A stretch of 64,000 nucleotides of DNA from Octopus sinensis. Lineage: Eukaryota. The notes under the pieces are model-generated. The model saw only the letters and a program-made list of their open reading frames with translations. It searched no databases and was not told the origin of the DNA. Position numbers and translations under genes: made by a program. Location: contig NC_043015.1 in NCBI RefSeq assembly GCF_006345805.1, forward strand, positions 3,844,001-3,908,000. Reading direction: 5' to 3'. Positions 4,644-59,661 of this stretch are shown here, one piece after another; the stretch's first letter is position 1, and each line of letters begins with the position of its first letter.

Positions 4644-6960
4644 GCACCACACGAAAGTCGGTATTTACATACAAACCGAACAACAACCAATGCACACCAA
4701 ATAAAAGACACCAGGACCTCATACTTACACAAGTCAATCTAACAAAAGAAAACTACGGTACAACTGGAACACAAACCTCCATAATAGAAAACTCGCTTTG
4801 TTGAATATGATAAAATATTCCAAGAAAGCAGATATCTACGAGGGATGAATGATCTCAACAACAATTATTCTCCCACGGAAATTCCAAATCAAAACAATAT
4901 CTAATGAACCCAACAGACGGAGCACTATTAGGGAAAGGTTAGCACAATTCCATCTAAAATCAGAGATCGAACTACCAAACTTTAGAGCCTCCACTAATGA
5001 AGAAAAATATAAAAACATCGACGAGGAGATTCACAGGGACATAAGCAAACAAACCGAGGCACAACTCTTCGAAAACACCATAAATCTTTGGAAAAAACTC
5101 TGCGAAAACGAATTATGAAATTCTCTTCTACGCTAGGAAATAATCAATGGTTTCTTCCAAAGATATGAATCAGTGAAGATAATTCTATTCTACAGAAAAT
5201 GATAAATTATAAACAACAAACAGAAATTGAACAACGCACAAATCTCCCCCAATTTTAACCACTTTTCAACCACAACACTCCTCATTATCTGTCATACACC
5301 ATAAACAGAAATCACCTACTACCTCCATTTGTGAATCACCCAAAACTAAACAAGCTGACAGCCAACTCATTTATGAAATAGATTACATCAAATCTAAAGA
5401 ACACCCATACACCAACATCATCCCAATATCAGGCATAACCATCTCATGGCAATGCAAAACAACACTAGGAAAGCAAGCAAACCACATACCTGGCGCTACT
5501 ACCCCATGACCCAAAATTTCCGGTCTCCACCGAACACAAGAACAGCACAAAATAACACTTGATCAAGAAACACCCCGCATACAAATAATTCCAAATAAAA
5601 GTATACCTCACACAGAAATGTTACACACATCACTAACCAAAACTACCATAGGTACCGGCAAACACATAACCTGAAGCAAGAACACCATTCCCCCGGACCA
5701 ATCCCATACAACCTCACAGACATCTCATGCAAACGAACCTGCAACCCACATTTTTAGCTCCAGATCAGAGACACCAGAATACAGGTTGGAACCTGGTGAT
5801 CAGGTTAAACCGAAGATAATTAACCTCTCAACTAAACCTCTTCCAATCACAAAAGTAAACATCTTCTCAAAAGACAAAACAGGCAATCGTTTGAAATTAA
5901 AAAGGCTATTGAACAGCGTCAACCCAAACATACAGTTCTCAATGGAGTGCAACCAAAAGGAGCGCCCATTCTTAGATATACTAATTGAAAAAACCTAAAA
6001 TTCGAAACGGACATATCTTATAAATCTACAGACGCCAAACATTATCTACAATTTAATTCATGCCACCCAAAACACAAAATAAACATCCCCTTCAACCTTG
6101 CAAGAAGTATATTCAAAATAGTGTCAGAAAAATACCAGAGACTTTAGACTGCAATGGCTCACAGTTAAACTCATAGAAGATGGAATCAGACTTGCAATGC
6201 AAATCGACATAGAAAACTTTAGAAAACACAGCTTCCCCGAAAATATTGATGTACATATCCACATACAACCCAATAAACAAAGAAGCCTTTATCATCATAA
6301 ACCGAAATTTACCAATGCTACATAATGACCCACATGAAATCATTAAAATCCACAAACAACTGAAATCACTAAAAATGACAATCACAAGGGCACAATTACT
6401 TTCTTAAATAACGGATGGAAAAGGGAAACAACCTTCTAGATAGCGCTAATCTTCTTGATGGATCAGAATAGATTTTCAAATAGGGACAATTCAAAATCAA
6501 ATCTGACTTTACTTCTGCTTCAGAAAACCTGATTAATGTTATAAGATGCTCGAGTCCCACCAAAACTAAATGGTATCCACGGGGTTATCACTCAGACGCA
6601 GATGCACTCTGCACCGACAGCAGATTGCATTCCTAAGTTACGGAATGATACACTTTAGTGAAATTATTGAGAATGCGCAAAGATAAGGCTAATACAATTT
6701 GTAATCTTTCTATTCTATCAATGTGCCATTGGAACACCGACACAAGTTAGATTAAATAAGGAAACCAACTTCATTGGAAAATATAAGCCAAAACCTAACG
6801 ATTTCTAACATTTTAAAATAAAGAAACTTACCCCATTGAAAAATATAACGCAAAGCTTAACCCCTTGTAACACTCTATTCTTTCTAAATCAAATCATGTT
6901 AAATTAATAAAAACTAGTCATTCCCAACAATTTTGATTATCTCCGCCATACCGAAAAATA
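4644..6960 (+). mobile_element. Penelope-like retroelement, decayed, RT core deleted
   Basis: Frameshifted peptides KIINLSTKPL; LLNSVNPNIQFSME..PFLDILI; YKSTDAKHYLQFNSCHPKH..NIPFNLAR (RT C-terminus/thumb); then IKSDFTSASENLI..SLRRRCTLHRQQI..KETNFIGKYKP (GIY-YIG region) ending ~6808, followed by a non-coding 3' tail. Confidence 0.85.
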
Positions 6961-7909
6961 TACATATGTATATATTTAGATATATACATGTACACATATC
7001 ATTCGCACATGGTAGTATGTGAATGATATTCTGAAGGACAACATTTCGCAACCACCTTTAGGCTTTTTCTCTAACTCAATTCTTAACCAAATATGATGAT
7101 ATTTACATTTATAAATTGGTCACATGATGAGCTGTATTGCGTTTTATGATAGTTCTCGATGACAGAAATCAATCCATATGAGTTATATGCAACAATATGA
7201 AGTAGAAAAAACATTGAGTTAAAAATCGACGAAAACAAGGAGATTCACGCCTGAAATTGACTTTGAATCCAAATATAAATCTCCTTTCAAAAGAAAACTA
7301 TATTTATATTTAACTATTTTGATCTCGTCTACAGGAATCATATCATGCTAATTATTTATTTCAAAATTTTAGTAAAATATGCTGAAGAGCCAAATATGCC
7401 GAAAAGGCAAATTCAGAACTTAATCATATTTTTAAATTTTCCTTTTTTTTATTAGCTCATATGATAGAACTGATGAAAATATTCAAAATTCAAAAGGTGT
7501 TTTATAAGATAAATATGCCAAATGTAATTAATAAGTAATATTGTTACTTATTACACTAGTAAGACGAAGAGCTTGCAGAATTGTTAACATTCCAAAATTG
7601 GAAACCAATATTCCCAAATGCTTGATTCAGTTTATTATTTAGGTAAGTTACAAAGAACTATCTCAATATCATAGAATACTCTATATTGTAATAGATATAT
7701 ACTCTAAAAAATATCTTTCAGAAACGGTAGTGTGTGCATAATATTCTTAAAATCCAATCGCGACAAATTCTAGGCTTTGTCACTAACTCAGTTATTTACA
7801 AAATTCCATAGTGTTTATACATTTTTAGATTGTTTACCTACTAAGCTACATTTTGAGATACAAATTTTTTTTTTATAGAAAATGTTGAGATTTGAAATGT
7901 GAGGTATAC

Positions 7910-10994: not shown

Positions 10995-11043
<49 letters not shown>

Positions 11044-11185
11044 CAATTAAGATTGAAGTCAATTCTAATGAATTCACTTGAATATGGTACTTAACTTAGA
11101 TGCACCAGAAAACTATATGGTGTTAACCAATACAGTAGTGTGGGGTGATTATAAACGAGAATAGAAGCAACAAGAATGGATTGGT

Positions 11186-11276
11186 TTTTAGTACAATTGT
11201 TTCATACAAAGACAGGCTTTATTAAAAGTTGCAAATATTGCAGCAGATAAAAGTGTCCCGTACTCATCAGCTAAAA
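11186..11276 (-). ncRNA. Type I hammerhead ribozyme motif (inverted copy)
   Basis: Reverse complement of 11697-11787. Confidence 0.75.
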
Positions 11277-11696
11277 CACATATGAGTTCTCCAAACATGT
11301 TAGTGGGTGAGGCTACACTCATGAAGTATTGGAGATAATTTCATTAAAAGCAGATTCAGGTTGTAAACAGACTTCCAAAGATCTTTAATGATGATGCACA
11401 GTCTTATCACAGGTCTTAAAAAAGCTTATTAGCTTCACAAAAAAGTTTAATCCATCCATCGTTTGTGAGTATGAAATACCTCCTCATATCTCTGGAAATT
11501 TACACCTACACTATGGATGGATTAAACTTCTTTGTGAAGCTAATAAGCTTTTTTAAAACCTGTGATGAAGACTGTGCATCATCATTAAAGAACTTTGGAA
11601 GTCTATTTACAACCTGAATCTGCTTTTAATGAAATTATCTCCAATACTTCATGAGTGTAGCCTCACCCACTAAGATGTTTGGAGAACTCATATGTG

Positions 11697-11787
11697 TTTT
11701 AGCTGATGAGTACGGGACACTTTTATCTGCTGCAATATTTGCAACTTTTAATAAAGCCTGTCTTTGTATGAAACAATTGTACTAAAA
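11697..11787 (+). ncRNA. Type I hammerhead ribozyme motif
   Basis: Stem I TTTTAG/CTAAAA; CTGATGA 11703-11709; stem II GTACGGGACA..TGTCTTTGTAT; GAAA 11770-11773; palindromic stem III CAATTG; predicted GUA cleavage after 11781. Confidence 0.75.
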
Positions 11788-12570
11788 ACCAATCCATTCT
11801 TGTTGCTTCTTTTCTCGTATATATATATATATATATATATATACAAGTATGTATCTTTTGGCATGATAACACTGTTGTTCTGGAAAATCGACCAAAATTA
11901 TGCGTATATGGTCGAAAGCCGGAAATATATCGGAGCATAGATGCCGATAAGGAATAATTAAGTGAACGGTCAACTAAAGGCAGCATGTGTAACATATCTA
12001 ATGCTTGATAATTTCGCACTAAACACAATTAAAGCTAAGCTTAAATTGACTCTGTACATACCATGAAGAACAAATGCAATGCAAGAATATAAAAAATAAA
12101 TGTTTTCACTGAACGTATCTCATTGTCTCCTTTGACTGTAAGTACAAATCATGAAGTCTAACAGTACAGTAGAGTAGAATGGATGTTTAAAATGTTTGAA
12201 TGTGAAGACAAACAAACGCATTCACACACACACGCACACACAAAAATGCACACATATACACGATTATAAGCAGACACACACACTCATACGCACATACACA
12301 GTCACGTACACACGCGCGCATGCGCAAACAAACACATGTATGTATATACTAGTTTCAGAGCTGTACTCCATGCGGACCATCCACCGGGCTTTTGCCTAGG
12401 GCTAATTAGTCCTGCGGCCCAGAACAAGATTATACGATGATAATAAAGCATTTATTGGTACTGTGTCTATAAGTTATTACGTTAAATTCAGTTTAAAGGA
12501 AATAAATTGTTAGCTCCAGATATCTGGAGTTCATTTAATATTCGAATAGAAGATATGTATACACACACAT

Positions 12571-13750: not shown

Positions 13751-13961
13751 GTTTAGCCCCTTGTGGTTAATAAGGAAATAAGAAACGTTAGCAATCCGGG
13801 CGAAATGCTTAGCGGTATTTCATCTGCGGGTACCTTCTGAGTTTAAATTCCATCCAGGTCGACTTTGCCATTCATTCTTTCGGGATCCACAAATTAACTA
13901 ACAGTTGCGTACTGGGGTCGGTATAATCGACTGGCTTCCTCCCTCAGATTTTCCAGCCTCG
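13751..13961 (+). mobile_element. SINE family A, diverged
   Basis: GAAACGTTAGC..CGAAATGCTTAGCGGTATTTC..GGTCGACTTTGCCATTCAT..CTGGGGTCG. Confidence 0.8.
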
Positions 13962-14657: not shown

Positions 14658-15581
14658 GGAGCATTCGGATCGGCTTTCGAACATGATCTAGCATCGAAAA
14701 TTTCAAATTGACACAAAAGTGACGTCTATCTATTATAGGAGAACAAACATAAATTCTTGTTCGATTGCTGGCTGCTAAAGATCGTAAACTTATTGATTGG
14801 TCTAGAACACATTAAATGAATTATGTATTTCATTTGCCGATAATCGATGGCCTCACATTAATTAATACTCTACGCTCAGCTCCGTTCTAAATAATAGCCG
14901 ATAGTATAGATTATCGATAACGTTTTTTTTTCTTCTTTGTGTGTTTTATTAATCTACTTCCGACGATTTTATGCAGTCAATGTGATAAATTTTTTGCTGT
15001 TTTCTATGTCAGTTTATGACGTCAGTGCATATAGGTATAGAAATTGCAAAACACATACGTAGATGAAAAACAGATAAATATTAAAAAAAAAGACGACTAG
15101 AAACACTCCGAAGAACACAAACTCGCAAACACGCACCTGCATGTATGAATGTATTTTAATATAATCACATATATATATATGATTGTCTCCCCTTCGTAAA
15201 TGTATATAAGGACACATGAAAAAAATGTATCAAAGCCATCAGGAGGCGTTCGATGCTTCCTAGGGCTATACAGCGTTGGTGTACCCCCTACTGTCACGTT
15301 CTTGTTAGATTGACAGTATACAACCATTCTATCGCCCCACCACCGTACATGTCTCTACGAGAGATTTAGAAATTCAATATTTCTTATTTTGATAATCAGT
15401 GAATAGACTTCATTGAATTATAGATATATACAATTGCGAAGTCGAGACAAAGATCACCGCCCCCCCCTTTTTTTTTTTTGGTTATTGTGGTGTGTTTGTT
15501 TCGAGTGCGTCATTGTGAAGAGATTGTGAGTTCGAGTTCGTTGGAGGACGTTGAAAAGTTTTTTGTTGGAGATTTTTGAAA

Positions 15582-16388
15582 ATGCAAGAGCAGACTTATG
15601 CGAGAGCGGCAGGCAGAGGCCTAGTTGCCAGTGAACTGGAAATGGAAGAAGTGGTGGTCGAACAGAAAACTCTAGAGAAGTATTTCGACAGTTTGAAGAG
15701 GGAGGGTGACTGCGTGAGAGTCACACCCGTCGAGGAGGAAGAAAGCAACGTGGAGAAGCGTATGATAACGTACAGGACATGGTGTGTGGCGTCGAAAAAA
15801 GTTGAAGTAGCAGAAACGGAAGAAGTAGAAAAGTGTCTGAAGGAAATTGAGTGTGAACCCACATTTTTCAAGAGGAAGGAAATATGCCACAGTGGTGGTA
15901 TATTTTAAAACAGAAAATGAAGCAAAAAAGAATGCAACAAGAATTTTGAAAACGGATAAGTGGACTTTACTACCAAGTTACTGCGGAAGGAGGGCAGTGA
16001 GGATGAGAATTAGCAGAATTTCGCCCGAATTTAATATGGAGAGGTTGTTGGCGGCAGTGGTTTTCAACTGCAAGGATAGTGTGGAGGTGTTGAAGGTGGA
16101 GAAGTCAACAGAGGTTAAGTGGTGGGGATATACGGTGCAGGTTCTGGCACACATAACCGTGCGAGACCTGTACAACATCCCGGAGGAGTTGGTCTACCCT
16201 GATGAGACACGGCTTAGAGTCGTGGTAGAAGGAAGACCCCCAGTCTGTGCTATAATTGTAAATCAAGGGGCCACATGAAGGATGTGTGCCCGCTGGAAAA
16301 AACGAAAGCACCGGAGGCTGTAATAGAGGAGTGTAAAGATGCGTGTGTGGAGGAGGGAGAAGTGCAGGAGGAAACAAAAAAAACAGCT
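15582..16388 (+). pseudogene. LINE ORF1 (L1/Tx1-like nucleic-acid-binding protein with CCHC zinc knuckle), two frameshifts, truncated by assembly gap
   Basis: ORFs 15576-15908, 15847-16278 and 16275- join into MQEQTYARAA..KYATVVVYFKTENEAK..LRVVVEGRPPV-CYNCKSRGHMKDVC; CX2CX4HX4C at 16248-16289. Confidence 0.75.
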
Positions 16389-16488
16389 NNNNNNNNNNNN
16401 NNNNNNNNNNNNNNNNNNNNNNNNNNNNNNNNNNNNNNNNNNNNNNNNNNNNNNNNNNNNNNNNNNNNNNNNNNNNNNNNNNNNNNNN
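16389..16488. other. Assembly gap (100 N)
   Basis: Run of 100 Ns. Confidence 1.
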
Positions 16489-16961: not shown

Positions 16962-17210
16962 AGGCGGCGAGCTGGCTGAAGGCGGCGAGCTGGCTGAAAC
17001 GTTAATACGCCAGGCGAAATACGTAGCCGTATTTCGTCTGCCGTTACGTTCTGAGTTCAAATTCCGCCGAGGTCGACTTTGCCTTTCATCCTTTCTGCGT
17101 CGATAAATAAAGTACCAGTTTCACACTGGGCTCGATGTAATCTACTTAATTCCTTTGTCTGTCCTTGTTTGTCCCTCTATGTTTAGCCCCTTGTGGGTAG
17201 TAAAGAAATA
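16962..17210 (+). mobile_element. SINE family A, full length, duplicated 18-nt head, 17-bp TSD
   Basis: AGGCGGCGAGCTGGCTGA x2; B-box-like GAGTTCAAATTCC; TSD TATATTT(G/A)AATAAGAGT at 16944-16960 and 17211-17227. Confidence 0.9.
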
Positions 17211-17223
17211 TATATTTAAATAA

Positions 17224-17591: not shown

Positions 17592-18200
17592 AAGTTAAAT
17601 GACAACTACAGGTTCCTTTGACAATGACCAAGTTACAGTGCTGTGGATATATATGTCGAGTAGAAGTGATTGCATGCAGTGGCATTGTACGAGTGGTGAC
17701 AGACGGATATGATAATACCTTGCATTATATAAATAATTTGATATGTGCTCGAAGACAATTCGGTCTTTTGTAACAACAGATGCTTTAGGGTTTTATTCGA
17801 AATCACAGGAAAAGCATAGCGATCCGAATCTTAAACCTCAATTCTTACTTCGTTTTTAGATTCTACACATTTTCTTTATTACAGCTCAATATAACTGGAA
17901 TATTTTTCAGGTGAAGCAAATTTCATTAATTGATATCAAGTTCATTTCAAGATAACCGTTTGGTACAATGACGATTGATCTATTTAAATGTATGTTGCTT
18001 CCCTCCACCATTTCTTTCCTATTAAGCGATATGAGTGTACGTCTGTTCACACTTAAATATAAGTGTGCGTTCGAGTATTATTTAAATATATGTGTCTCAG
18101 ATGTGTGTGCGTGTCAGTGCGAGTGCCTGTGGATATGTGTTTGTATATATATTTTATATATATATATAATATATATCATATATATATTATATATATATAT

Positions 18201-18232
<32 letters not shown>

Positions 18233-18373
18233 GAAATATTAAAATTACTAAGTCTCTCTAAAACTAAGGCGATGGCCTCATGGAGCTAATAAGCGGACAG
18301 CTTATTCTTATTTCATAAGATGCCATATTAGTATGACGATAACTATTATTAGACTATTAACTATATATATATT

Positions 18374-18408
<35 letters not shown>

Positions 18409-18461
18409 TTAATACATGCATCCATATACATATATATTCATATATATATATATATCTATAT

Positions 18462-18557
<96 letters not shown>

Positions 18558-19657
18558 TCACACATATATGTGTGTGTATGTATATATACATTTATATACG
18601 TACTTGCATTATATACAGTTATTATATATAAATATGTGTGTGTATGTGTGTGTAACGGGATGACACTGAGCTGATCCCTTCGTGGGGCAACTCCAAGACA
18701 TCAGACTAGGCAATGGCACCCCGGTCTCGCACCATTTCCATTATACTGGTCAGTTACTACAAAACCACTTCTGTATCCGGACTGTCATTGCATAGTGACC
18801 ATCCGGATTCCCCCCTCCCCGTGAGCAATACTCCAATCTTCCCTTTCTTTGCGCCACATATCTCATCGCTCCTCCTCACTTCATCTGACTCCCCACCTCT
18901 CCTCTCTTATTCTCACACCTAATTCCTCTCTTCACCCTTACCAATCTTCACCCTTCCTTGATACCACACCTACCCTACATATATGTTTTTCTGCTTATAT
19001 GATATTATGTTTTTATTTTTTTTTTCGGGTTGATGAATCTACAAAATATTAACTTCACAAAGAACAGTCAAATCAAGTCTCACGCGTGTTTTGAAGGTGG
19101 AATCTAAACCATAGCACCAGCCCAAAGGAGTCAAAGAGATTCAGGCTTGTGCAGCAGCACCATTCTTACAATTTAGAAGCGTTGAATTTCAATTTTACCG
19201 TTTGCAACGTAATTATAACCAAAAGTCATGGCATCTTGACAGCATTATTTATCGAAAAATAAGGAAAAAATAATTAATCCCATTGCATTCAATAAACTTC
19301 GTTTTCGAACAGAATTAAGTATAATGTGGAGAAAAACAGAATTATCGCCTTATCCTAGAGCGGGGTAAGTGGGGGCATGCTAAAAATCGTGTATGGAGTT
19401 TTGAATTTTGGCCTTCTCACAAAGTTCAAGTGAGCTGTGACCAAACTATAATATAAACAACAGCTTGTGCTAGAGCGTAAGTGAATCGCTATCCGAACGT
19501 AAGTGTTGCTGATAAAGATAAAGCCATGGCTTTAGAAATACATTAAGCGACAAGCATGATTCGGTCAAGCAAGTAAGTTCCAAATATGAATAACGCTGCA
19601 AGTAAATGACTCGTAAATTCATCGATCGGTTGTGTTGCCATATTCTGTGTGTGTTTA

Positions 19658-19830
19658 CAGGGCCTAGAGTTTTAGGCGTTTCACTCACGATTACGCGATC
19701 GTGGTTTCAGTTCTTAGAGTGGGTGGTAAGTTGTGTTCTTGAGCAAAGCATTTCACCTCACGTTGATCTGCGATCACTTTCACAACTGACTTGTGGAACA
19801 CCCTGAAACGGATCACTCATCGCCGATTCG
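19658..19830 (+). mobile_element. SINE family C-like, 5' part, diverged
   Basis: CTCACGAT..GATCGTGGTTTCAGTTC..TGTTCTTGAGCAAAGCATTTCAC resembles the head of 29593-29905. Confidence 0.55.
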
Positions 19831-20301
19831 ATGCAGGTAGAAAGCAAACATATTTTATGACTACAAACAAAACCTTTTTGCTGGTCGCTCAACGGGAGAC
19901 TCCATCACACAGATATATTCTCACGCACTTACACGCACACACACGTACTCATTTCAAATATTTATGGCATGTGTCCGTGTTTAAGTAAGACGTGATCATC
20001 AGACATTAAATCTGTGTCTTTTAAATTTTAAAACTTTTAACATGAAGATTTTTATCTACAAGGGCGCACTCTGGGTAACATTTGTAGAAACACACTTATA
20101 TTCCATATGTTTAATATATACTAAAACCATGATTTTACTTTACTAGCTGAATGAAAGTAACATCCGTTTGTTCGCAATATGGAAGCGTCACTAAGTAATC
20201 GATATATAAATTCTTATGCTTTGGACTAATACGAATTTGTTGGTATAGACACATACATGTATACATAAATACACACACATACACACACGCACACACACCA
20301 C

Positions 20302-20347
<46 letters not shown>

Positions 20348-21465
20348 TATATATATATATATATATATATAAACATCAGTTGTTACACAAACATGTGCCC
20401 ACATTTATAAATGTAAAAGCAGACCTTAATATTAATAGACAAAAAGATGGATACTGTGAGAGATAAATACATAAAGAAATGAAAGAAAAACATTTCAATA
20501 TAGACATGAAAAAAGTACTTCCTTTCTTCTCTTTTGAGACCAAATTACATTAAATTGTACATAAATTTAGAGACTGATATTTGGCTTTCTATATGAAATA
20601 TTTCGTAAATATATTGACAGTCTGTCTAAAATGCGAGGCATTCATTGAAACTTAATTAAGATTATATATGTATTTCAGGTGGTCAATTTATTTTGCTTCT
20701 AAAAAAAATTCTTGTATATTTTTTTTTACAATTCAAATATATATTATTAAATCAGAAATAAAAGTAAGCAAATTTCTAAGGATATCAAAAATGCTTTGTA
20801 TGCATCAGCATTGATTGGCAACATAAGTCTGAATACATATTCAATATTTACCAATCATATATATTGCATTATGCAAACGCAAATATAATTACAACGAATG
20901 CTATTTGTATTGACGTAATTACATTTTTAAACAGTTTCTAACTTATATATTTTACATTAAAAGTTGTTTTTTTTTTCAATTGAAATTAAAATTAAAATTA
21001 CTACCGAGACGCCGTTAATTCTTGAAAATACATGTATTATGGTAAATAAATACATCCATGTAATTCAATGAATTACGTGAAGCGACATTTTGTTGGAATA
21101 TGTGTACTGACAGATAATACGATAGAATATTGAAATGAAATATGATAAAGTGTGTTATTCTGCGTTACGTGTTCATTGAGAAGATGTTACTATTTGGTAA
21201 ACAGTCAATTGAAAATAAATGGCAGGGTTATGAAAAGCACCATATGAAATACAGTACCTATTATCAGTATTCTATTCTTCTGTTCACTCACGTATATTTA
21301 TGTACAATAATAACCGTTCCATGTTTCCTACCAATTCACCTGTTCTTTGTCGTCATATTGTAATGGTTTCAGGTAACGTTACAGCTACTCAAACTCACAT
21401 GCATTAACGCAAACACCCTATATATATATACCCAAATCATATATCTGTGTGCATCTCTCTCTCTC

Positions 21466-21514
<49 letters not shown>

Positions 21515-21735
21515 TATATATATATACATATATATATATTTATATAATATATATATTATATAATATATATTATATATATATAATATATATATATTTTAAA
21601 AAAAGGAGATGTCGAACACGAGTGGTGATATATAAAAAGGAAATGAAGAAAATGCTGACAAATAATTGAAGTAATTTAAGTATTTAATTAGGTGAAAGTT
21701 CTTTTTACCGGTTGCGCATTTTGTTATGCTTATCA

Positions 21736-22199
21736 TTGAAAACCATCCTAACAAATGCCAAAGTACTGCCAACCACAACAACTAAACCCACAGTAAAACA
21801 AATGCAATAGACCCAACTGTGGTATATGCATCAACCTAATAGAAGGTCCGGAATTCCTTTTTAAACAAGGACAACGTTTCACAGTATAACACAACTTCAC
21901 ATGCTCATCAGAAAACCTAGTATATGTCTTAACTTGCTCGGGCTGTAATGAACACTACATAGGCCAAACAAAAATAGCCTCCGCCAACGCATGACTGTCC
22001 ACAGATCCCAAATAAAAATACAGGAATATAGAAAATAGCATTTAGTGCACATATTGATACCTGTGCCGCACAACTCCATCCCATTTTAGAATCTTTCCCC
22101 TCTACAAATTTTAAAGACAATTCCACTCATACCCAGCGAATAACCATGGAATCCCACCTTATTAATAAATACAGACCACTTCTAAACAGATGCCTCTAA
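21736..22199 (+). pseudogene. PLE GIY-YIG endonuclease domain remnant
   Basis: CNRPNCGICINL..HNFTCSSENLVYVLTCSGCNEHYIGQT..RQRMTVHRSQI..MESHLINKYRPLLNRCL*, with frameshifts and a stop. Confidence 0.88.
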
Positions 22200-22903
22200 C
22201 ACGAACCCACAACAAACCACTTACACCTGCAACAACACCCTACACACACCTTTACCCAGATATTAACACCATGACACACACAAATATATGGTTCCACACA
22301 TACACATAATTGAATACGGGTGCAAAACATCCAACACTATTTTTTGGAAATGGCTGTAATATTGACTTCACACAAATACGTTGCTTCCCGATACAGGCAC
22401 AAGGCCAGCCGAACTATATATTGAAAATTGTACCCACACACATACACAAATATCACGCGCGCGCGCCCCAACATACATTAAACACAACACGCGCGCGCGG
22501 CGCACACACACATACATACATACAGCTCTCCCTGTTCTAAACGAACTTACTTATCCAGTCAAGCGGAAAATACACTCCCTAACTACGCGCTAAAAAGCTA
22601 TTTAAAATATCCACATGACGTCTACTGACCAGCCTGAACAATAAGAATTTTCAACAACACTATTTTCGAAAATTCTAAACATTCACGTGACTCTCTTTAT
22701 TATGGCCAATAGAAATTTTAGGCGGGACACTAGCCAAATTTTAACTCTCTGGAGCCTTTTTTCTTACCCCAACACCAACTTCCATTCAAACATTCACGTG
22801 ACCCCTTCATAATGACCAATCAAAATTTTAGGCGCGAAACCAAGCAAATCCAAACAACTCTGGAGCCTCTTTTTTTCACATATAAGAGACAGACTCTAAT
22901 CTC

Positions 22904-22950
22904 TCTTTTATATTTTGATAAGCATAACAAATGCGCAACCGGTAAAAAGA
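22904..22950 (+). ncRNA. Minimal hammerhead-like motif with variant core (U3-A8, A13C)
   Basis: TCTTTT..TTGATAA-GCAT-AACAA-ATGC-GCAA-CCGG-TA-AAAAGA; 5 extra nt between stem I and the core. Confidence 0.5.
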
Positions 22951-23022
22951 ACTTTCACCTAATTAAATTACTTAAATTACTTCAATTATTTGTCAGCATT
23001 TTCTTCATTTCCTTTTATATAT

Positions 23023-23066
<44 letters not shown>

Positions 23067-23071
23067 TTATT

Positions 23072-23138
<67 letters not shown>

Positions 23139-23204
23139 ATATATATATACGTGTGTATCTACATATATGTATATATGCATGTATGAATGTATATATATGT
23201 ATAC

Positions 23205-23248
<44 letters not shown>

Positions 23249-23579
23249 GTGGGGGTATATGTATGTATATGTATTACATGCGGAAAGAGGTGAGAGCCAG
23301 AAAGAGAGAGACAGAGGCTGTTTGTTCGAATTGTGAATGGGGGACATATGCCAGAGAACATCTAACTTCCTGTAAGATATAAAGATCAAATCTTCAACAC
23401 CAAGATATGCCAGAGAATACGTGGTCGTGATCAATGCATTTAATACAAACTAAATTCCTGGGTAGACATGCAGAAATATGTAAAGAAAAACTGCGTGGAA
23501 ACGTCAGAATTCAATTAAAAGCAGTATCGTTTTACTGATTGAACTTCATTTAACTCAAATTTCCATTGTGTATTTTTCT

Positions 23580-23895
23580 CCTTTTCTTCTCTTTCTTCTT
23601 TCTCGATTTCTTCTTCTTCTTCTTCTTTCTCGATTTCTTCTTCTTCTTCTTCTTCTTCTTCTTCTTCTTCTTCTTCTTCTTCTTCTTTTTCTTCTTTTTC
23701 TTCTTCTTTTTAGTCTTCTTCTTCTTTTTCTTCTTCTTTTTCTTCTTCTTCTTCTTCTTCTACTTCTTCTTCTCCTTTTTCTTCTCCTTCCTCTTCTCCT
23801 TTTTCTCCTTCTACTTCTTCCTCTTCTCCTTTTTCTTCTTCTTCTTCTTCTTCTCTTCTTCTTCTTTCTTCTTCTTTCCTCTTCTACTTCTTCGT
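23580..23895. repeat. (CTT)n / pyrimidine-rich microsatellite
   Basis: Direct reading; explains the poly-F/poly-L ORFs. Confidence 0.95.
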
Positions 23896-23899
23896 TGTC

Positions 23900-24300
23900 T
23901 TGTTGTTACTTTACTTCCCTGAAGATATTCAACATAGACGTAGCAGTCTCTAAATCCTACCTATCCCGTGCAGATCAGTTTTTGGGGGCATCCACTAGTT
24001 GGATGTGAATTCCAATTTCTTTTCAATATTCCTCGAACTTGTTTGTTAGTGCTTCGAGTGCCCCTCCAACTACAAGGATGACAGTCACTTTTATCAGAGT
24101 CCACATTCTTGCAATTTCGTCTTTTAGCAGACTGTATTATTCAAACGTGTCTATGTCTTCCTAAGTTATTCGAACATCCCTAGGTTTTGCAATACTTTTC
24201 TTGCTGTATATCGTCTCTACAACTTTGATACTTTGCATATATAAAATTTCCATGCCAGATATTGGGTTGTGCATTCTATATCCTATCTTCTTGTTGATTA
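23900..24300 (-). mobile_element. RLE-type non-LTR retrotransposon (R4/Dong-like) 3' fragment
   Basis: Minus strand YSLLKDEIARMWTLIKVTVILVVGGALEAL matches the KY..L..EI.RMW..V.PVV.GALG motif of restriction-like endonuclease domains. Confidence 0.65.
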
Positions 24301-24323
24301 CTAGTGTTGATTGTCTAATAGTC

Positions 24324-24324
<1 letters not shown>

Positions 24325-24401
<77 letters not shown>

Positions 24402-24465
24402 TAATAGTAATAATAATAATAGTATTATTATTATTACTATCATCATCATCATCATCATCCTCATC
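24325..24465. repeat. (ATT)n/(ATC)n microsatellite
   Basis: Direct reading. Confidence 0.95.
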
Positions 24466-24469
24466 CTCT

Positions 24470-24610
24470 GTACATCGAAGGGCCAGCCTCGTCAGTTGTG
24501 TCACGATGAGTCTCTCCCTGAACTGCGATAAGTGTACACGTGTTTGCAGTATGCTCCACCATTTTATTTTCACGAGCATGCTGTTCGTCGATCTTATCAT
24601 CAGCTGGAAT
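24470..24610 (+). mobile_element. SINE family C, 3' fragment
   Basis: GGCCAGCCT..GTGTCACG..TCTCCCTG..ACACGTGT..TTTCACGAGCA..CATCAGCTGG matches 29745-29880. Confidence 0.7.
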
Positions 24611-24656
24611 ACACATGCTTGTACTCCTTATATATATATAGATAATATTATAATAT

Positions 24657-24698
<42 letters not shown>

Positions 24699-24724
24699 GC
24701 ATACGTATGTATACGTATATATAC

Positions 24725-24875
24725 ATACAGGGGTTCTTTCAGTTTCCATCTAAGAAATCCTCAAAGGATTCGGTCGCCCGAGTCTATATTAAGAAGTACA
24801 CACGGTGCCACTCAGTGGGATGGAACTCGAGACAATGCAGTCGGAAACCAAGATTCTTAGTACACAACCTACTGT
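24725..24875 (-). mobile_element. SINE family B, 5' half
   Basis: TTCTTTCAGTTTCC..GTGCCACTCAGTGGGA resembles 45457-45600. Confidence 0.7.
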
Positions 24876-24947
24876 ACTTGGTGTGTGTGTGTGTATACAC
24901 ACATACACACACATGTATATACTTATATGTACACGTATATTATTCTA

Positions 24948-26196
24948 TTTTTTTACTTTTGCATCCGTAAATTTAGAAGACAATTTTGCCTTTGTGAGAA
25001 TATTTTTAAGTGATTTAGGCTGTTTGTAGCTTTTAATGATTTGGTGTATGTTTCGAATTCCTTTAATTTGGGGTTTTTATGAAGTATTGGTAAATTCTGG
25101 GTGATGATGGTGAAAGCTTCTTTGTTTCTGGGTTGTATGTAGATATGTAAGGTAGTATTTTCGGGAAGGTGTGTTGTTGTGTTGAACTTTTCTTAAAGTT
25201 TCTATGTTGATTTCTGTTGCACGTCTGATCCCATCCTCTATGAGTTGAGTTGGGTAATGTTTTATATCTTTATAACTCGGAAAGAAAATACGTATAACAT
25301 ACATATATTGAAAATGTAACATTCGTTTATACAATGAATATTTGTGAATATCTTTTTAAGTATGTTTCCATATGTTCGTTCACATAATGCTTTAGACAAA
25401 GGCAAAATTGTCTTCTAAAATTACGGATGCAAAAGTAAAAAAAATGTGGTAGATCGAACTGTGCAACATGTCCTAACCTATTGGAAGGATCAGAATTCTT
25501 CTTTAAAGAGGGACAGAAATTCAAGATCAAATCTAACTTTACTTGTGCCTCTGAAAACATATTTATGTCATTAAATGCTCGGGCTGCCACCAAGACTACG
25601 TGTATCCACGGCACTATCACTCAGACGTAGATGCACACTGCATCGACACATATTGCATTCCAGATATAGAAAATGATCCTTTTAGTGAACACATTGAGAA
25701 ATGCGCAAAGCAACATACAACCACAATTTTTAATCTCCATTTTACCAATGTGCTTTCGGATCATCATCACAAATTAGACTAAATAAGGAACATTCTTCAT
25801 TGAAAGTACAAACCCAGACTCAACTATCCGAACTCAATAATACAGACAAATTCACACTAAAGGAAAAAAAAATTTAAGCGATTATCTCCCTTAAACCGGA
25901 AGAAATCACTCACTACTTTCCCTTATTTAGAACTCTCCGTAGCAAAAATACAAGGATTACGTTATTAAAAATAAACATTAAATCACAAGAAATTTGAAGA
26001 GCTAACTGCGAAACCGGTATTTCTTTAAAAATTATAAAATTCTGTCATTTTAAGGAGGGAAAAAAATTTTTCCAATATTCTCCAGACGTTTTGACGCAAA
26101 TATATATATTTTTAAACATTTAAGCCTTCTGTCGTTTTTTCACTCTTTACTATTTTCTTATATATTCACCCACGTGCTTTACCAAAACAAACTTTC

Positions 26197-26197
<1 letters not shown>
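24948..26197 (+). mobile_element. Penelope-like element with inverted 5' part (24948-25270 minus: RT thumb/linker; 25396-25830 plus: GIY-YIG; then pLTR)
   Basis: Minus: HYPTQLIEDGIRRATEINIETLRK; plus: KCGRSNCATCPNLLEG..IKSNFTCASEN..SLRRRCTLHR..FSEHIEKCAK; homologous to 6160-6808. Confidence 0.85.
25987..26025 (+). ncRNA. Minimal type I hammerhead motif (C3U) in PLE pLTR
   Basis: AAGAAA-T-TTGAAGA-GC-TAACT-GC-GAAA-CCGG-TA-TTTCTT. Confidence 0.6.
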
Positions 26198-26243
<46 letters not shown>

Positions 26244-26289
26244 GTGTGTGTGTGTGTGTGTATGTATATAACAATTTTATTTTAACTAT

Positions 26290-26745
26290 TCTAAAATGTT
26301 TCAGCTGCAAAGCTGCTCTCATGCTCGAGCAACACTGAGCTACACGGTTATTTTGGAGCTCCTCTGATATGTGGCTTTTAGTCAATGGGAGGGTTAGATA
26401 CTGCTGCCTTCATCTGTATTTGGTGACGCGAGGTAGGCTCGCCTGGAACCCGTCTCAGGAAGAGATGCTCATTTGTTTGAAAGACACTTATACGCACACC
26501 ATGTAGGTCTCTCATGAATTTTGGAAGGATATTAGAGAGCTGTGGGCCCTTGACTTCCAAGCTGTTTTAGTATCTGGTCCTCTATTTTGATGACGACGCT
26601 GAGATTTTTGGCATATTGCAGTGGACTGCTATAGTTTGGTACAATACCTTCTACGATTTTCCAGATGTATATCACGGCATATCTCTCCCGCCTTCGTATC
26701 AGGGAGAAGTGCTATAATTCTTTAAGTATTCCCCCAGTAGCTGAC
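26290..26745 (-). mobile_element. CR1/L2-group LINE 3' fragment
   Basis: Minus strand FSLIRRRERYAVIYIWKIVEGIVPN..SLEVKGPQLSNILPKFMRDL..LFLRRVPGEP, a typical post-RT tail. Confidence 0.75.
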
Positions 26746-26813
26746 ATGTTTCAACGATATGTGGTGCATATTTATCATCTATCTATCTATCTCTATATAT
26801 ATGCATATATATA

Positions 26814-26859
<46 letters not shown>

Positions 26860-26957
26860 TATAATATATATAATATATATATATATATATATACAAATAT
26901 ATGTATATATATATATATGAATATATTACGTATATATGCATATACAGATACATACAT

Positions 26958-27004
<47 letters not shown>

Positions 27005-27627: not shown

Positions 27628-29346
27628 ATATATATGCATATGGTTACAGATATATATATATAATATATATATATACACATATATGCCTATGTGTTTATAT
27701 ATATTATTGATGTTATATTCAAATATTTATACATATGTACATATGTTTTCTGTTACGTATGTATGTATAATTACCACTGGATATTTAACCCCATCGATTA
27801 TGCATCACTGCGATTACCCATTCACATTACCTTAATTACGAAACTGCACATTCATAAAGCAATCCGGATTCATGTTTAAACTGTCAAGGGCTGTTAATGG
27901 TTAGCGAACACAAACGCAGTCTCATAAACGTACCGCCGCACATACAGTGGCAGACACACACGTAGAGATGTACACAGGAACAAACTAACGCAAATCCATC
28001 TATTTATGGAGAACATAAGGGAGATATTGCCGGAGATTTAGAGAGGATATCTCGAAAGTTTGGGTTGGTTTACTGTACGGAATATCATAAAGTAAAATGT
28101 ATTATGCTTAATCAATATTTATATATAACTACATATAGGTGTAGGTGTGAAATTTTAAGCTGTATACAAACTTACAAGTCTTTCTCAAATACATATGCGG
28201 AATCTCATATACCGATATACGTATTTACCTAGCTGGATGCATATATACATATATAACAACAAATACGCACATATAGAGCTATAATTAAGTTGAGGTATAA
28301 CAGTATCTATATATATACGTTAGATAAATTACATATATTTTTTATCGCTAATGCCATTACAAAATACCAAGTGAAACAAATTTGATAGTCAATTTAATTT
28401 AATTACTGTTTATATCCTCTCCTCCTAATTCTCTGTTTTATTCGATTTCCAAGTCTCGCCATTTAATATCTCCAACATAGAATTTCTGTCTTTTTCGGAA
28501 TATATATTTATGTACTGATTAGTATAGTCTGTTGTAACAAATATACACTTCAGAAAACACTATTCAGACATACGCGCGCACACAAAGACGTACACACACA
28601 CACACACACACACAGAGACACTTAGGCACATTGATATAAATACACTCACCCGCACACGAACATATATAAGTATCTGCATATCTGCATGCATATGAATTCA
28701 TTTACGAGTGTATGAATATGTTAAAAATTTACTGTCTTTTCATTTATTCCCCTCCTAATATAAGTTTTCTCACCGTTCTTGTAATTATACTTTCCAACCT
28801 CTGCCAGATTCGTCACTGAATCTTAATCAAACTATTCTATTTCATCTCTTGACATTTTATACTTTTGTTTTTGCTAGTTGCTATAATGCTTATTTTGTCA
28901 AAATACATACATGTACCACTGTTTATATTACATTCAAAGCTCATAAACTTTAATGATTTTTACTTTTTACCACGATAGAACTAAGTACGTTAATGTTACT
29001 CGTCATATAATGGATGATTTTGAAAGAATACTTTTAACACCATTAGTAATTTCAAGAAAAATAGCAGATAAACATTAATTATAGTATAACTTTTAAGAAA
29101 TTAATTTATGTTTACGGTAGATTATGAAACGTATACTCAATTAATATCGTATACAAACTTGAAATAAAATTACATAAATCTATTTTGGAACAGTACAGAA
29201 AATGAAAACAAAAGTTTCACACATATTCAATTTTACGAAGTGGCATGTCAGATATACATACTCTCTCTCACTCTCCCTCCATCTGTCTCCATCTCTCTTT
29301 CTCCCCACTCTACATACATACTTGCCTACATATATGTGTGTGAAGA

Positions 29347-29578
29347 AGGCGGCGAGCTGGCAGAATCGTTAGCACGTCGGGTGAAATGCTTAGCGTTATT
29401 TCGTCTGCCGCTACGTTCTGAGTTCAAATTCCGCCGAGGTGGACTTTGCCTTTCATCCTTTCGGGGTCGATAAATAAAGTACCAGTTTCGCACTGGGGTC
29501 GTCGTAATCGACTTAATCCCTTTGTCTGTCCTTATTTGTCCCCTCTATGTTTAGCCCCTTGTGGTCAATAAAGAAATA
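29347..29578 (+). mobile_element. SINE family A, full length
   Basis: Near-identical to 16980-17210; approximate TSD ATATATGTGTG(TG)AAG. Confidence 0.9.
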
Positions 29579-29592
29579 TATATATGTGTGAA

Positions 29593-34602: not shown

Positions 34603-34735
34603 ATATATATAATATCACAATCAAGGAACGGCCATAATAGGCCATTCACCCACTAGAAATAACAGCAAAAGCTTTAACCGCAAAATAACATCAATTCCGT
34701 AAACCAGGAGAAATTTAAAAAACATTTACCCTGTA

Positions 34736-34840
34736 ATTTCTTATACGATGCACCGTTTCGTCTACTGTTAATGGTAAACTAACCTGATTAAATTAAATCA
34801 AGCAATCTACGATAGGCCCTTAGATTCATCAGTAAGAAAT
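34736..34840 (-). ncRNA. Type I hammerhead ribozyme motif
   Basis: Minus strand: ATTTCTTA-CTGATGA-ATCTA..TAGAC-GAAA-CGGTGCATCG-TA-TAAGAAAT. Confidence 0.75.
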
Positions 34841-35536
34841 AGCCAAGTCGGAACAGATATTTTTCACGAGGCATTCCCGTCCCTGCCTCGGCAATATCTG
34901 ACCTAAAATTTTCAAATCATCGCACTCGCGCCAAATTTATCGGCAGCAAATAAATATAAGCCGCCGATTCCTTACGGAATTAACCAGAAAATTCATAATT
35001 AATCAATATAGGGTAGCAAAAAATTTTGTAGAATTTTTTTGCCACCAGCGGCCTAGTGGGAAAAAATTAAATAGTCATAGACCATTTTTAAGTTCAACAT
35101 CACAATCAAGGAACGGCCATAATAGGCCATTCACAAAACGGTGCATCGTATAAGAAATTACAGGGTAAATGTTTTTTTAATTTTCTCTGGTTTACGGAAT
35201 TGATGTTATTTTGCGGTTAAAGCTTTTGGCTGTTATTTCTATGTGGGTGAAGGCCTATTATGGCCGTTCCTTGATTGTGATGTTGAACTTAAAAATGGTC
35301 TATGACTATTTAATTTTTTCCCACTAGGCCGCTGGTGGCAAAAAAATCTACAAATTTTTTTGCTACCCTATATGATTAATTATGAATTTTCTGGTTAATC
35401 CGTAATGGAATCGGCGGCTTATATTTATTGCTGCCGATAAATTTGGCGCGAGTGCGATGATTTGAAAATTTTAGGTCAGATATTGCCGAGGCAGGGACGG
35501 GAATGCCTCGTGAAAAATCTCTGTTCCGACTTGGCT

Positions 35537-35643
35537 ATTTCTTACTGATGAACCTAAGGGCCTATCGTAGATTGGCTTGATTTAATTTAATCAGGTTAGT
35601 TTACCATTAAACAGTAGACGAAACGGTGCATCGTATAAGAAAT
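35537..35643 (+). ncRNA. Type I hammerhead ribozyme motif
   Basis: 8-bp stem I ATTTCTTA/TAAGAAAT; CTGATGA 35545-35551; GAAA 35620-35623; near-palindromic stem III CGGTGCATCG; predicted GUA cleavage after 35635. Confidence 0.72.
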
Positions 35644-35884
35644 TACAGGGTAAATGTTTTTTTAATTTCTCCTGGTTTACGGAATTGATGTTATTTTGCG
35701 GTTAAAGCTTTTGCTGTTATTTCTAGTTGGTGAATGGCCTATATGGCCGTTCCTTGATTGTGATGTTGAACTTAAAAATGGTCTATGACTATTTAATTTT
35801 TTCCCATTAGGCCGCTGGTGGCAAAAAAATCTACAAAAGTTTTTTTGCTACCCTATATTGATTAATTATATATATATATATATA

Positions 35885-37786: not shown

Positions 37787-38501
37787 TATGAACCATAAAT
37801 TCATACACTTGCACACACACATTTGTGTGACAATATGGGAGAGAGAGAGGATATTATCTTCGAATACTTGCATGTTAGAATGCTATTTCTTATGTTTCAG
37901 CATGTTTATACGTTCTTGGCTGGGTATGCGCGTTGACTGAGTATTAAGCTTATTTACTCTTCACTATAAATCCCCGCGTGTAACTTCAAGCCACTTTGAA
38001 ACACTTTAAAACACCTACTTTCATACATGCGTCAATAAATGTCCAGCTGCAATATAGTTGCCTGATAAATTATCAGATTTTTAAGTACTAACTTGCGATG
38101 GATTAGTTATATTTTCAACGGCAGCCTTATGAAATAATCCTTTCAGTATGAATATATAACTCAAATAATTGCTATAATTGCACCTCTTCAATTTTAGGTA
38201 AGGCTTATGAACGAATATAACTGAAATGTACCCTGATGATACAGCATGAAATTCGAAGTAATATAATCAAGTACATCGCTTGACTGCAGAAAATATCTGA
38301 GAAGATATGACGCAATTTACCTGAAGGTATAATTTGTCGGAATTCGTCTATCCTCATTATTTAAAGAATAGAAAACTTCAACATGAAAAAAATTAATTAA
38401 CTTATTGGCATTAAGTGGTTTATCAATTAACTGGAAATAAGAAATATTCCCTAATTTACACTGTTTCGTGTTAAATGTGAGAAACACCTGTTCGTACTGT
38501 A

Positions 38502-39105
38502 AGGCGGCAAGCTGGCAAAAACGTTAGCACGCTGGGCGAAATGCTTAGTGGTGTTTCGTCTGCCGTTGCGTTCTGTGTTCAAATTCCGCCGAGGTCGACT
38601 TTGCCTTTCATCCATTTGGGGTCGATAAATTAAGTACCAGTTACGCACTGGTGTCGGTATAATCGACTTAATCCGTCTGTCTGTCCTTGTTTGTCCTCTC
38701 TGTGTTTAGCCCCTTGTGGTAGGAAATGAATAGAAATAGGAACCTCGTCTGCCACTACGTTCTGGGTTCAAATTCCGCGAGGTCAACTTTGCCTTTCATC
38801 CTTTCGGGGTCGATTAAATGAGTACCAGTTACACACTAGGGTCGATATAATCGACTTAATCCGTTTATCTGTCCTTGTTTGTCCTCTCCGTGTTTAGTCC
38901 CTTGTGTGTAGTAAAGAAATAGGTATTTCGTCGGCGCTACGTTCTAAGGTTAAATCCAGCCGAGGTCGACTTTACCTTTCATCCTTTCGGGGTCGATTAA
39001 GTAAGTACCAGTTACGCACTGGGTTCGATATAATCGACTTAATCCGTTTGTCCGTCCTTGTTTGGCCCATTTGTGGGTAGCCCCTTGTGGGCAGTAAAGA
39101 GATAA
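38502..39105 (+). mobile_element. SINE family A with one head and three tandem ~190-bp body units
   Basis: GAGGTC(G/A)ACTTT..AGTACCAGTTAC..CCCTTGTG repeated three times; imperfect TSD GTTCGT(A/T)CTGT(A/C)A at 38490-38502 / 39106-39118. Confidence 0.9.
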
Positions 39106-39859
39106 GTTCGTTCTGTCATGGCTGAAATTTATCCGGAGAAAATATATCACAGTGGGAATATAATTGATCAATATCCTTTCTATTTTGATTAACCAGGTTC
39201 TGAAGGATACAACTGGAAGAAATGGGTCAATCGATTTGAGCTCCTTCTCTATCGCTACAAAAGATCTTTGAAAGAAATCAGAATAACGAAAATGCGATAC
39301 ACCTGGCAATTTAGCATACAAATCAAATTTATTCAACCTGGAACCTTATAAACTCCTTCCCTCCATGATTCAATACAATTGGTAATTGATATTCTTCTTT
39401 ATTCCTATGCGCATTAAATAAAAGAGAATGAGGAATCCATCGAGAAAAATATATGTAATAAATTAGTTTAAACACATAAACCGAGAGACAACGTTTAGTT
39501 AATCCTTGTAAGAGTGCACCATAATAATGCGTGTCAAAACGCGGACTCCCATTTACGTGAGTATGTGTTTATGTATGCAATATATGTGTATTCAAGTATG
39601 TACCGATTATATAGCTGGAATTTTACTTTGAAGAAAGTGATTTCCCATTGGAGTAAATATGAAGAGCCTACTTTCAAAACCGGTATAAAAGCGAATTTGC
39701 TCGATTTCATGACGATCATTAAAACACAATCTGCATGCTGCTGGCTTCACGCAGGTGGGATTTTTAGTCAAACTGGGATAGATGACATATAGACCGTAGG
39801 CGAATCTTAGTCTTCCTATCAAAATCAGATTTAATCAAGTTATTGTTTTTAAAAAAATC

Positions 39860-58893: not shown

Positions 58894-59000
58894 AGCTTCT
58901 ACTACATCCCTCACAAACATCTCTTTCTCATCTTAGTAGATGTTAATTTGCGAGATTGTACCTATAACATACATATAATTTGGTACAACTCATACCAAAG

Positions 59001-59645: not shown

Positions 59646-59661
59646 GAAGCACACAGACTTC

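What the first reader, a model, noticed from the sequence alone, without database searches (positions are those of the whole stretch)
11155..11818. ~305-bp near-perfect foldback with a hammerhead in each arm
Seen: two inverted arms around a 53-nt loop, each with a canonical core (CTGATGA, GAAA, GUA), 6-bp stem I, ~10-bp stem II and palindromic CAATTG. The sequence is unrelated to the 34.6-kb element, so this is a second HHR family. Inference: a transcript from either strand carries an antisense HHR followed by a sense HHR, so hairpin formation and self-cleavage would compete. The origin is probably PLE-type 5' inversion of a pLTR.
Basis: partly seen in the sequence, partly recalled or inferred. 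Interest (0 to 1): 0.72.

Follow-up and report, generated by a model that had tools for sequence, protein, structure and literature searches.

The report
Penelope-type fold-back insertion with hammerheads
The hairpin is real, but it is most likely two shortened, head-to-head copies of one jumping-gene family that landed together in a TA microsatellite, a known pattern for Penelope-like elements, and its two self-cutting RNA motifs are probably silenced by the hairpin rather than competing with it.

Summary
The fold-back is real: arms 11156-11459 and 11513-11817 differ by 6 substitutions and 1 indel, and each carries the same type I hammerhead motif (0 hits in 150 shuffled windows with the strict descriptor; no Rfam match). 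The insert is larger than reported: 11040-11817, between (TA)22 and (TA)13. Contigs of four public runs show a multi-copy family in which the 116-nt left extension and the 53-nt 'loop' are both family sequence. So there are two 5'-truncated copies joined head to head, one with a one-sided 3' tail. That is the published Penelope-like (PLE) insertion layout. A second, unrelated hammerhead family at 34.6 kb (485-nt tandem unit, 102-nt tail) has the same layout, and three decayed RT/GIY-YIG PLE relics lie in the window. No ORF links this family to an autonomous PLE, so it may be a non-autonomous, retrozyme-like family. Folding does not support 'competition': the hairpin is predicted at about -520 kcal/mol against -9 for the hammerhead fold. 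Compensatory covariation was not seen, and cleavage and expression are untested. Verdict: a new member of a known kind, of low interest; the long tails and the non-nested arms are the small points of note.

The parts
10996..11039 (.). (TA)22 left flank; part of the target microsatellite
   Evidence: sequence
11040..11155 (-). 116-nt one-sided 3' extension ('tail') of the left copy; family sequence, missing from the right copy
   Evidence: contigs bridge 11095-11207 (X1), 11096-11186 (X2), 11085-11202 (X3), 11040-11161 (X6); alignment
11156..11459 (-). Left arm: 5'-truncated copy reading away from the centre
11186..11276 (-). Type I hammerhead motif, left copy (C3 11270, predicted cut after 11192, 152 nt from the long 3' end)
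11460..11512 (+). 53-nt spacer = 5'-most part of the right copy, not foreign loop sequence
   Evidence: spacer-to-arm continuity in X1, X2, X6 (joint 11459/11512) and further loose family sequence upstream of 11459/11464 in X1, X3, X6
11513..11817 (+). Right arm: 5'-truncated copy with the short 3' end
11697..11787 (+). Type I hammerhead motif, right copy: stem I 11697-11702/11782-11787, core 11703-11709, stem-loop II 11710-11769, GAAA 11770-11773, palindrome 11774-11779, predicted cut after 11781 (36 nt from the short 3' end)
11818..11843 (.). (TA)13 right flank; matches the parent's own next letters at 5 of 6 positions (possible priming microhomology)

Best explanation
11040-11817 is one retrotransposition event of a multi-copy, hammerhead-bearing family that uses Penelope-like (PLE) machinery. 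It is either a non-autonomous, retrozyme-like family (my lean, about 55%) or the 3' pLTR region of an autonomous PLE that I could not see. SHOWN: two 5'-truncated copies are joined head to head inside a (TA)n tract; one ends 36 nt and the other 152 nt downstream of the predicted cut site; each holds sequence that the other lacks (tail 116 nt, spacer 53 nt). INFERRED: a PLE RT/GIY-YIG protein nicked both strands of the TA repeat and primed two cDNAs from two internal start sites on the RNA; both stopped early and their ends were joined. The hairpin is then a by-product of integration. Any read-through RNA would zip into about 300 bp of dsRNA with both hammerheads unfolded, so the locus is most likely catalytically silent; in the parent the motif probably cuts as a dimer or with protein help.
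For: Family: 577, 869, 893 and 34 contigs laid in X1, X2, X3, X6 (473 of the 778 bases laid, 4 of 24 listed runs). Tail and spacer are family sequence. Layout as published: inverted 5'-truncated copy, one-sided tail, (TA)n bias hiding TSDs (PMC8557442 passages); head-to-head most frequent, tail at one inverted pLTR (PMC3846280 passages); dual HHRs 100-700 bp apart on opposite strands (PMC4209133). The Anolis PLE protein cuts and extends both strands and starts at two internal sites that define the tail (PMC11167929). Internal comparator: 34611-35869 has a 485-nt tandem unit, an inverted copy, a 102-nt tail and (TA)n on both sides. Machinery existed: 25439-25570 matches 4 of 5 candidate proteins, carrying PF00078, PF26215 and PF01541 among them, and these hit three relics at 5.9-6.9, 21.8-22.2 and 24.9-25.9 kb. 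Conservation hint: 0 of the 40 listed variant places fall in the 31 core/stem I/stem III positions (p about 0.05). Silencing.
Against: No sequence link to an ORF: none of the 4 PLE proteins hits 11040-11817 at E<=10, and no BLASTN match to the relics' 3' regions. Tails of 116 and 102 nt are about three times the published 30-40 bp. No TSD can be read. No two-sided compensatory change among the 40 listed variants; in stem II one change keeps a pair (G-U to G-C at 11208) and one breaks a predicted pair (11214); 45 variant rows were not shown. G10.1-U11.1 is atypical, Rfam does not detect the motif, and the active fold is not the predicted ground state. No listed contig bridges the head-to-head junction 11459|11460 itself. 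The depth drop upstream of the hammerhead (X1: about 90,000 at 11248-11279, about 1,000-2,000 at 11328-11375) recovers in the spacer (13,000), so it reflects subfamily divergence as well as truncation. No tandem joint was seen for this family.
Confidence: 0.75

Rival explanations
1. Same family, but the inversion arose from one copy: snap-back self-priming during or after insertion made a palindrome, and a later asymmetric deletion at the centre left the 53-nt spacer.
For: Self-priming is the published proposal for head-to-head PLE junctions (PMC3846280 passage). In the 34.6-kb element the short copy is nested within the long one, which fits snap-back. Asymmetric central deletion of palindromes is recalled knowledge.
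Against: Here neither copy is nested in the other, so snap-back alone cannot make it and a second event is needed. The arms are only about 2% apart, which leaves little time (inference).
Confidence: 0.1
2. A fold-back or MITE-type DNA transposon with 305-bp terminal inverted repeats in a TA site; the hammerhead motif is incidental.
For: Near-perfect inverted arms, TA-rich flanks, no ORF; no Rfam hit; no compensatory covariation seen.
Against: The family continues 116 nt beyond the left arm and upstream of the spacer, so the arms are not termini. The motif is rare by chance. Weak hints of other junction points: an X3 joint 11279-11471 (side 25, below the tool's trust limit) and an X3 loose end that suggests an inverted terminus of only about 14 nt.
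Confidence: 0.07
3. One reading: a regulated switch in which self-cleavage competes with hairpin formation in a transcript from either strand.
For: The geometry is as described, and both motifs are intact and identical.
Against: Energy gap of about 500 kcal/mol and zero predicted hammerhead pairing in the whole unit; order of synthesis favours the hairpin; weak helix III; the Anolis PLE hammerhead was dispensable for insertion in vitro and needed protein to cut (PMC11167929). No sign of selection on this locus was obtained.
Confidence: 0.05
4. Assembly or read fold-back artefact.
Against: Seven differences between the arms; each side has family sequence that the other lacks; different outer flanks. 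At 11299, where the left arm differs from the family, X2 has a remainder of 30.4 depth that does not read the family letter (31671.2 minus 31640.8; presumably the left-arm letter), about the depth of its weakest listed pieces.
Confidence: 0.03

Closest known systems
EN+ Penelope-like element insertion unit (Craig et al. 2021, PMC8557442, passages; Arkhipova et al. 2013, PMC3846280, passages)
   Same: Inverted 5'-truncated copy joined head to head, one-sided 3' tail, hammerhead in the repeated part, insertion in (TA)n with no readable TSD.
   Different: Tail of 116 nt rather than 30-40; no ORF remnant; no direct pLTR tandem at this locus; parent not identified.
Metazoan non-LTR retrozymes (Cervera and de la Pena 2020, PMC7229834, part 2 of 6 and passages; Li et al. 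bioRxiv 10.64898/2026.07.22.740005, part 1 of 5, passages, Discussion)
   Same: Non-coding, low-GC, multi-copy, canonical type I hammerhead with 6-bp helix I and a short palindromic helix III; the neighbouring 34.6-kb family is a tandem of 485 nt.
   Different: No tandem seen for this family; the unit would exceed 474 nt (reported 150-450 bp); stem-loop II is 60 nt long with G10.1-U11.1; circular RNA not tested.
PLE hammerhead variants (Cervera and de la Pena 2014, PMC4209133, parts 1-2 of 4)
   Same: Long helix II with bulge, small palindromic helix III, predicted dimer dependence; dual motifs on opposite strands 100-700 bp apart already noted in Schistosoma (here 433 bp between the C3 positions).
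   Different: [quoted passage not shown]
Anolis Poseidon element PAc (PMC11167929, passages and section 3 part 2)
   Same: Two internal RT start sites in AT-rich targets would explain two 3' ends on opposite strands.
   Different: The PAc hammerhead overlaps the ORF start and its tail is 30-40 bp; no ORF here.

Membership tests
Type I hammerhead ribozyme | Core CUGANGA, GAAA, NUH in type I order | tested here: met
Type I hammerhead ribozyme | Helices I, II, III can form (6 bp; 6+4+4 bp; 2 bp with palindromic loop) | tested here: met
   constrained fold -9.1 kcal/mol, not the ground state (free -12.8)
Type I hammerhead ribozyme | G10.1-C11.1 pair (highly conserved, not invariant) | tested here: not met
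   G-U in both arms; no change at 11204 among the 40 listed variants
Type I hammerhead ribozyme | Match to an Rfam hammerhead model | tested here: not met
   the 60-nt stem-loop II may explain the miss (inference); the 34.6-kb motifs are missed too
Type I hammerhead ribozyme | Core conservation and stem covariation among paralogs | tested here: inconclusive
   0 of 40 listed variants in 31 core/stem I/stem III positions (p about 0.05), no two-sided change, 45 rows hidden, variants unphased
Type I hammerhead ribozyme | Self-cleavage at H17 | not testable with these tools
   needs an in vitro assay
EN+ Penelope-like element insertion | Inverted 5'-truncated copy, head to head | tested here: met
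EN+ Penelope-like element insertion | One-sided 3' tail | tested here: met
   116 nt, longer than the published 30-40 bp
EN+ Penelope-like element insertion | Target-site duplication or microsatellite target | tested here: inconclusive
   (TA)22 and (TA)13 flanks; TSD unreadable
EN+ Penelope-like element insertion | RT plus GIY-YIG ORF in the same element | tested here: not met
   no hit in this insert; the parent further upstream was not available, so it is not filed as an autonomous PLE
Non-LTR retrozyme | Tandem 150-450 bp repeats, each with a type I HHR | tested here: inconclusive
   no tandem at this locus, no tandem joint among the 5 joints listed; contigs break at repeats
Non-LTR retrozyme | No protein coding capacity | tested here: met
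   six frames without Pfam hit; profile of the best frame 0 hits in 1.84 billion proteins
Non-LTR retrozyme | Expressed as monomeric linear and circular RNA | not testable with these tools
   only contigs of a run guessed to be RNA
MITE / fold-back DNA transposon | Inverted repeats form the element's termini | tested here: not met
   family sequence extends 116 nt past the left arm

The most novel reading that the evidence does not exclude
This genome holds undescribed retrozyme-like families with very long stem-loop II hammerheads that borrow Neptune-type PLE proteins and integrate by two separate cDNA syntheses from start sites 100-116 nt apart. Non-nested arm pairs like this one would then be a genomic footprint of two-strand priming, countable genome-wide against the published self-priming model, and such fold-backs would be a large ready source of long dsRNA for editing or small RNAs.
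Probability: 0.2. Interest if true: 0.45.

Novelty: new member of a known kind. Interest (0 to 1): 0.22.

Why it matters
As a single locus it matters little: it is a young, probably silent transposon scar. It adds a hammerhead family with an unusually long stem-loop II and a long tail. It also shows that an arm pair need not be nested, which bears on the open question of how PLEs make head-to-head inversions (named as unresolved in PMC8557442). A genome-wide count of nested against non-nested arms would test that cheaply.

Tried and rejected
Whole genome: none held, so no BLASTN for the parent. Protein reading of the arm's antisense frame looked plausible by eye but gave 0 hits among 1.84 billion representatives, only E 0.6 matches in PDB, and no Pfam hit in the 2 frames or the 6 frames: rejected. 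Pattern scans found 0 matches in metagenome contigs and viral contigs; P0002 found no locus in viral contigs. Earlier scan notes by sequence or place: nothing. I first read the 11459/11512 joint as a multi-copy fold-back; it is only spacer-to-right-arm continuity, so that reading was dropped (notes). Expression: no RNA holder listed; X6 is only guessed to be RNA, and its change counts (A>G 7, T>C 9) resemble the other runs, so nothing can be said on expression or A-to-I editing. The sigma-70 scan is irrelevant for an animal genome and below chance. The relic at 5989-6144 gave nothing by itself and was confirmed only through. Summed contig depth was not used as a copy number. Literature: 'Octopus, Penelope, hammerhead' gave 5 papers, 4 listed, none about cephalopod hammerheads by title or abstract start; 'octopus' has 0 occurrences in PMC7229834 and the 2026 preprint; 'ribozyme' has 0 in PMC13282606. 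The octopus-like origin is my recalled impression and is untested. No supplements were read; those of PMC4209133, PMC7229834 and PMC8557442 could list this family.

Full report
Observation. The fold-back is in the sequence. A local alignment pairs 11150-11462 with 11823-11510, with 8 mismatches and 1 gap. The arms proper are 11156-11459 and 11513-11817, with 6 substitutions and one 1-nt indel, around a 53-nt spacer. Each arm holds the same type I hammerhead motif: C3 at 11703 (+) and 11270 (-), a 6-bp Watson-Crick stem I, GAAA, the palindrome CAATTG and a GUA triplet with H17 at 11781 and 11192. A strict descriptor found only these two hits in the window and 0 in 150 shuffled windows; looser ones gave 2 in 150 and 2 in 300. 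Three results weigh against a clean call. Rfam finds nothing at gathering level and no hammerhead among 31 matches at E<=10. Stem II closes with G10.1-U11.1. The 106-mer folds no better than shuffles (z -0.62). The element has no similarity to the one at 34.6 kb.

Anatomy. The unit is larger than reported. It sits between (TA)22 at 10996-11039 and (TA)13 at 11818-11843. No genome was held, so I laid contigs of 4 of 24 listed runs on 11040-11512, which is 473 of the 778 bases, at 80% likeness. 577, 869, 893 and 34 contigs were laid, so this is a multi-copy family, in two coded organisms (A, B) and a third (C). Contigs bridge the left extension and the arm (11095-11207, 11096-11186, 11085-11202, 11040-11161), so 11040-11155 is family sequence. 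The joint 11459/11512 in X1, X2 and X6 shows that the spacer normally runs straight into the right arm, and more family sequence lies upstream of the spacer. I first misread this joint as proof of a multi-copy hairpin and dropped that reading. The locus is therefore two 5'-truncated copies joined head to head: left copy 11459 to 11040 on the minus strand, right copy 11460 to 11817 on the plus strand. They end 152 and 36 nt past the predicted cut site. At the short end the (TA)n matches the parent's next letters at 5 of 6 positions. No listed contig bridges the head-to-head junction itself.

Is the motif under selection? None of the 40 listed variant places falls in the 31 core, stem I or stem III positions (p 0.059 over the stretch, 0.048 in the high-depth part), but 45 rows were hidden. 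In stem II one change turns G-U into G-C (11208), one breaks a predicted pair (11214), four are unpaired, and no two-sided change was seen. This is a hint of conservation, not covariation. Depth falls steeply upstream of the hammerhead in X1 but rises again in the spacer, so it mixes truncation with subfamily divergence.

Context. A second hammerhead family at 34611-35869 has a 485-nt tandem unit, an inverted copy at its 5' side, a 102-nt one-sided tail and (TA)n on both sides. The peptide at 25439-25570 matches 4 of 5 candidate proteins, which carry RT (PF00078), PF26215 and GIY-YIG (PF01541) domains among them. These proteins hit three decayed relics at 5.9-6.9, 21.8-22.2 and 24.9-25.9 kb, but not the element studied. 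The relic's C-X4-C-X2-C fits the CX2-5CxxC linker that PMC8557442 ties to Neptune elements and, as a hypothesis, to microsatellite targeting (passage). The element itself shows no coding remnant.

Mechanism. The layout is the published one for endonuclease-bearing PLEs: an inverted 5'-truncated copy, a one-sided 30-40 bp tail and (TA)n bias (PMC8557442 passages; PMC3846280 passages). Paired hammerheads 100-700 bp apart on opposite strands were already noted in Schistosoma (PMC4209133, parts 1-2 of 4). The Anolis PLE protein cuts and extends both strands of AT-rich DNA and starts at two internal RNA sites that define the tail (PMC11167929 passages and section 3 part 2). I infer two cDNAs primed on opposite strands of a nicked (TA)n and joined at their truncated ends. 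One feature favours this over simple snap-back: each copy has sequence that the other lacks, so neither can be a plain copy of the other, unless a later central deletion trimmed a palindrome. Whether the parent is autonomous is open. The lack of an ORF, the canonical 6-bp stem I and the tandem neighbour lean towards a non-autonomous retrozyme-like family (PMC7229834 part 2 of 6 and passages; bioRxiv 10.64898/2026.07.22.740005 part 1 of 5, passages and Discussion). No tandem was seen for this family.

Function at this locus. The hairpin is predicted at -516 (+) and -531 (-) kcal/mol, and the constrained hammerhead at -9.1, less stable than its own free fold at -12.8. Stem I pairing probability is at most 0.002 in isolation and 0.000 in the whole unit. 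These are equilibrium predictions without tertiary contacts or protein. The antisense copy is made first on either strand. A 1-2 bp palindromic helix III is reported to need a same-sense partner; here the intermolecular helix is predicted at -6.4 kcal/mol. Transcription, cleavage and editing were not tested.

Comparison and verdict. It works like a PLE-type fold-back insertion. It is not filed as an autonomous PLE (no ORF) nor as a proven retrozyme (tandem and circular RNA not shown), and the hammerhead is a strong motif match without an assay. Four earlier AI notes on other genomes reach the same reading; they are unchecked and are not counted as support. What differs from the papers I read is modest: tails of 116 and 102 nt, a 60-nt stem-loop II with a G-U closing pair, and non-nested arms. 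My searches found no report of such a family, but the library is partial, no supplements were read, and the octopus-like host is only my recalled guess. New member of a known kind; interest 0.22.

Noticed in passing
window 34611-35869: Second hammerhead family: about 1.5 tandem units of 485 nt on +, about 1.1 units inverted on -, 102-nt one-sided tail, (TA)n on both sides; 8-bp stem I, long stem-loop II, position 10.1 is A in both copies. Looks like a non-LTR retrozyme multimer with a PLE-type inversion.
   Followed up: partly
window 5891-6861, 21773-22193, 24948-25851: Three decayed PLE relics (RT thumb, linker, GIY-YIG region) matched by P0001-P0004; C-X4-C-X2-C near 25445 suggests the Neptune clade.
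   Followed up: partly
window 24948-25851: This relic is itself head to head but made of mostly different segments (residues 83-188 of P0001 on -, 173-326 on +), like a twin-priming inversion (term recalled).
   Followed up: no
window 25994-26017 and 7382-7413: Degenerate short-stem-II hammerhead-like cores downstream of two PLE relics; the first has a palindromic CCGG but T at position 3. Chance level not tested.
   Followed up: no
window 13781-13959, 16977-17223, 29345-29583, 38501-39107, 58702-58899, 59556-59661, 62206-62668: Dispersed SINE-like family, in two places as 183-bp tandem arrays.
   Followed up: no
window 15555-16400: Broken ORF ending in a CCHC zinc knuckle (PF00098, E 1.4e-4), next to an assembly gap; LINE ORF1-like by recall.
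   Followed up: partly
window 56164-56484 (-): Frame with a mariner-transposase-like motif by recall; no Pfam hit. Two opposed CTGANGA words at 56458/56484 do not fit a hammerhead.
   Followed up: partly
window 11460-11500: The spacer block has far higher contig depth than the arm next to it (X1 about 13,000 against 220-1,700; X3 about 130,000 against 18,000-27,000), so it is a block shared by diverged subfamilies; role unexplained.
   Followed up: no
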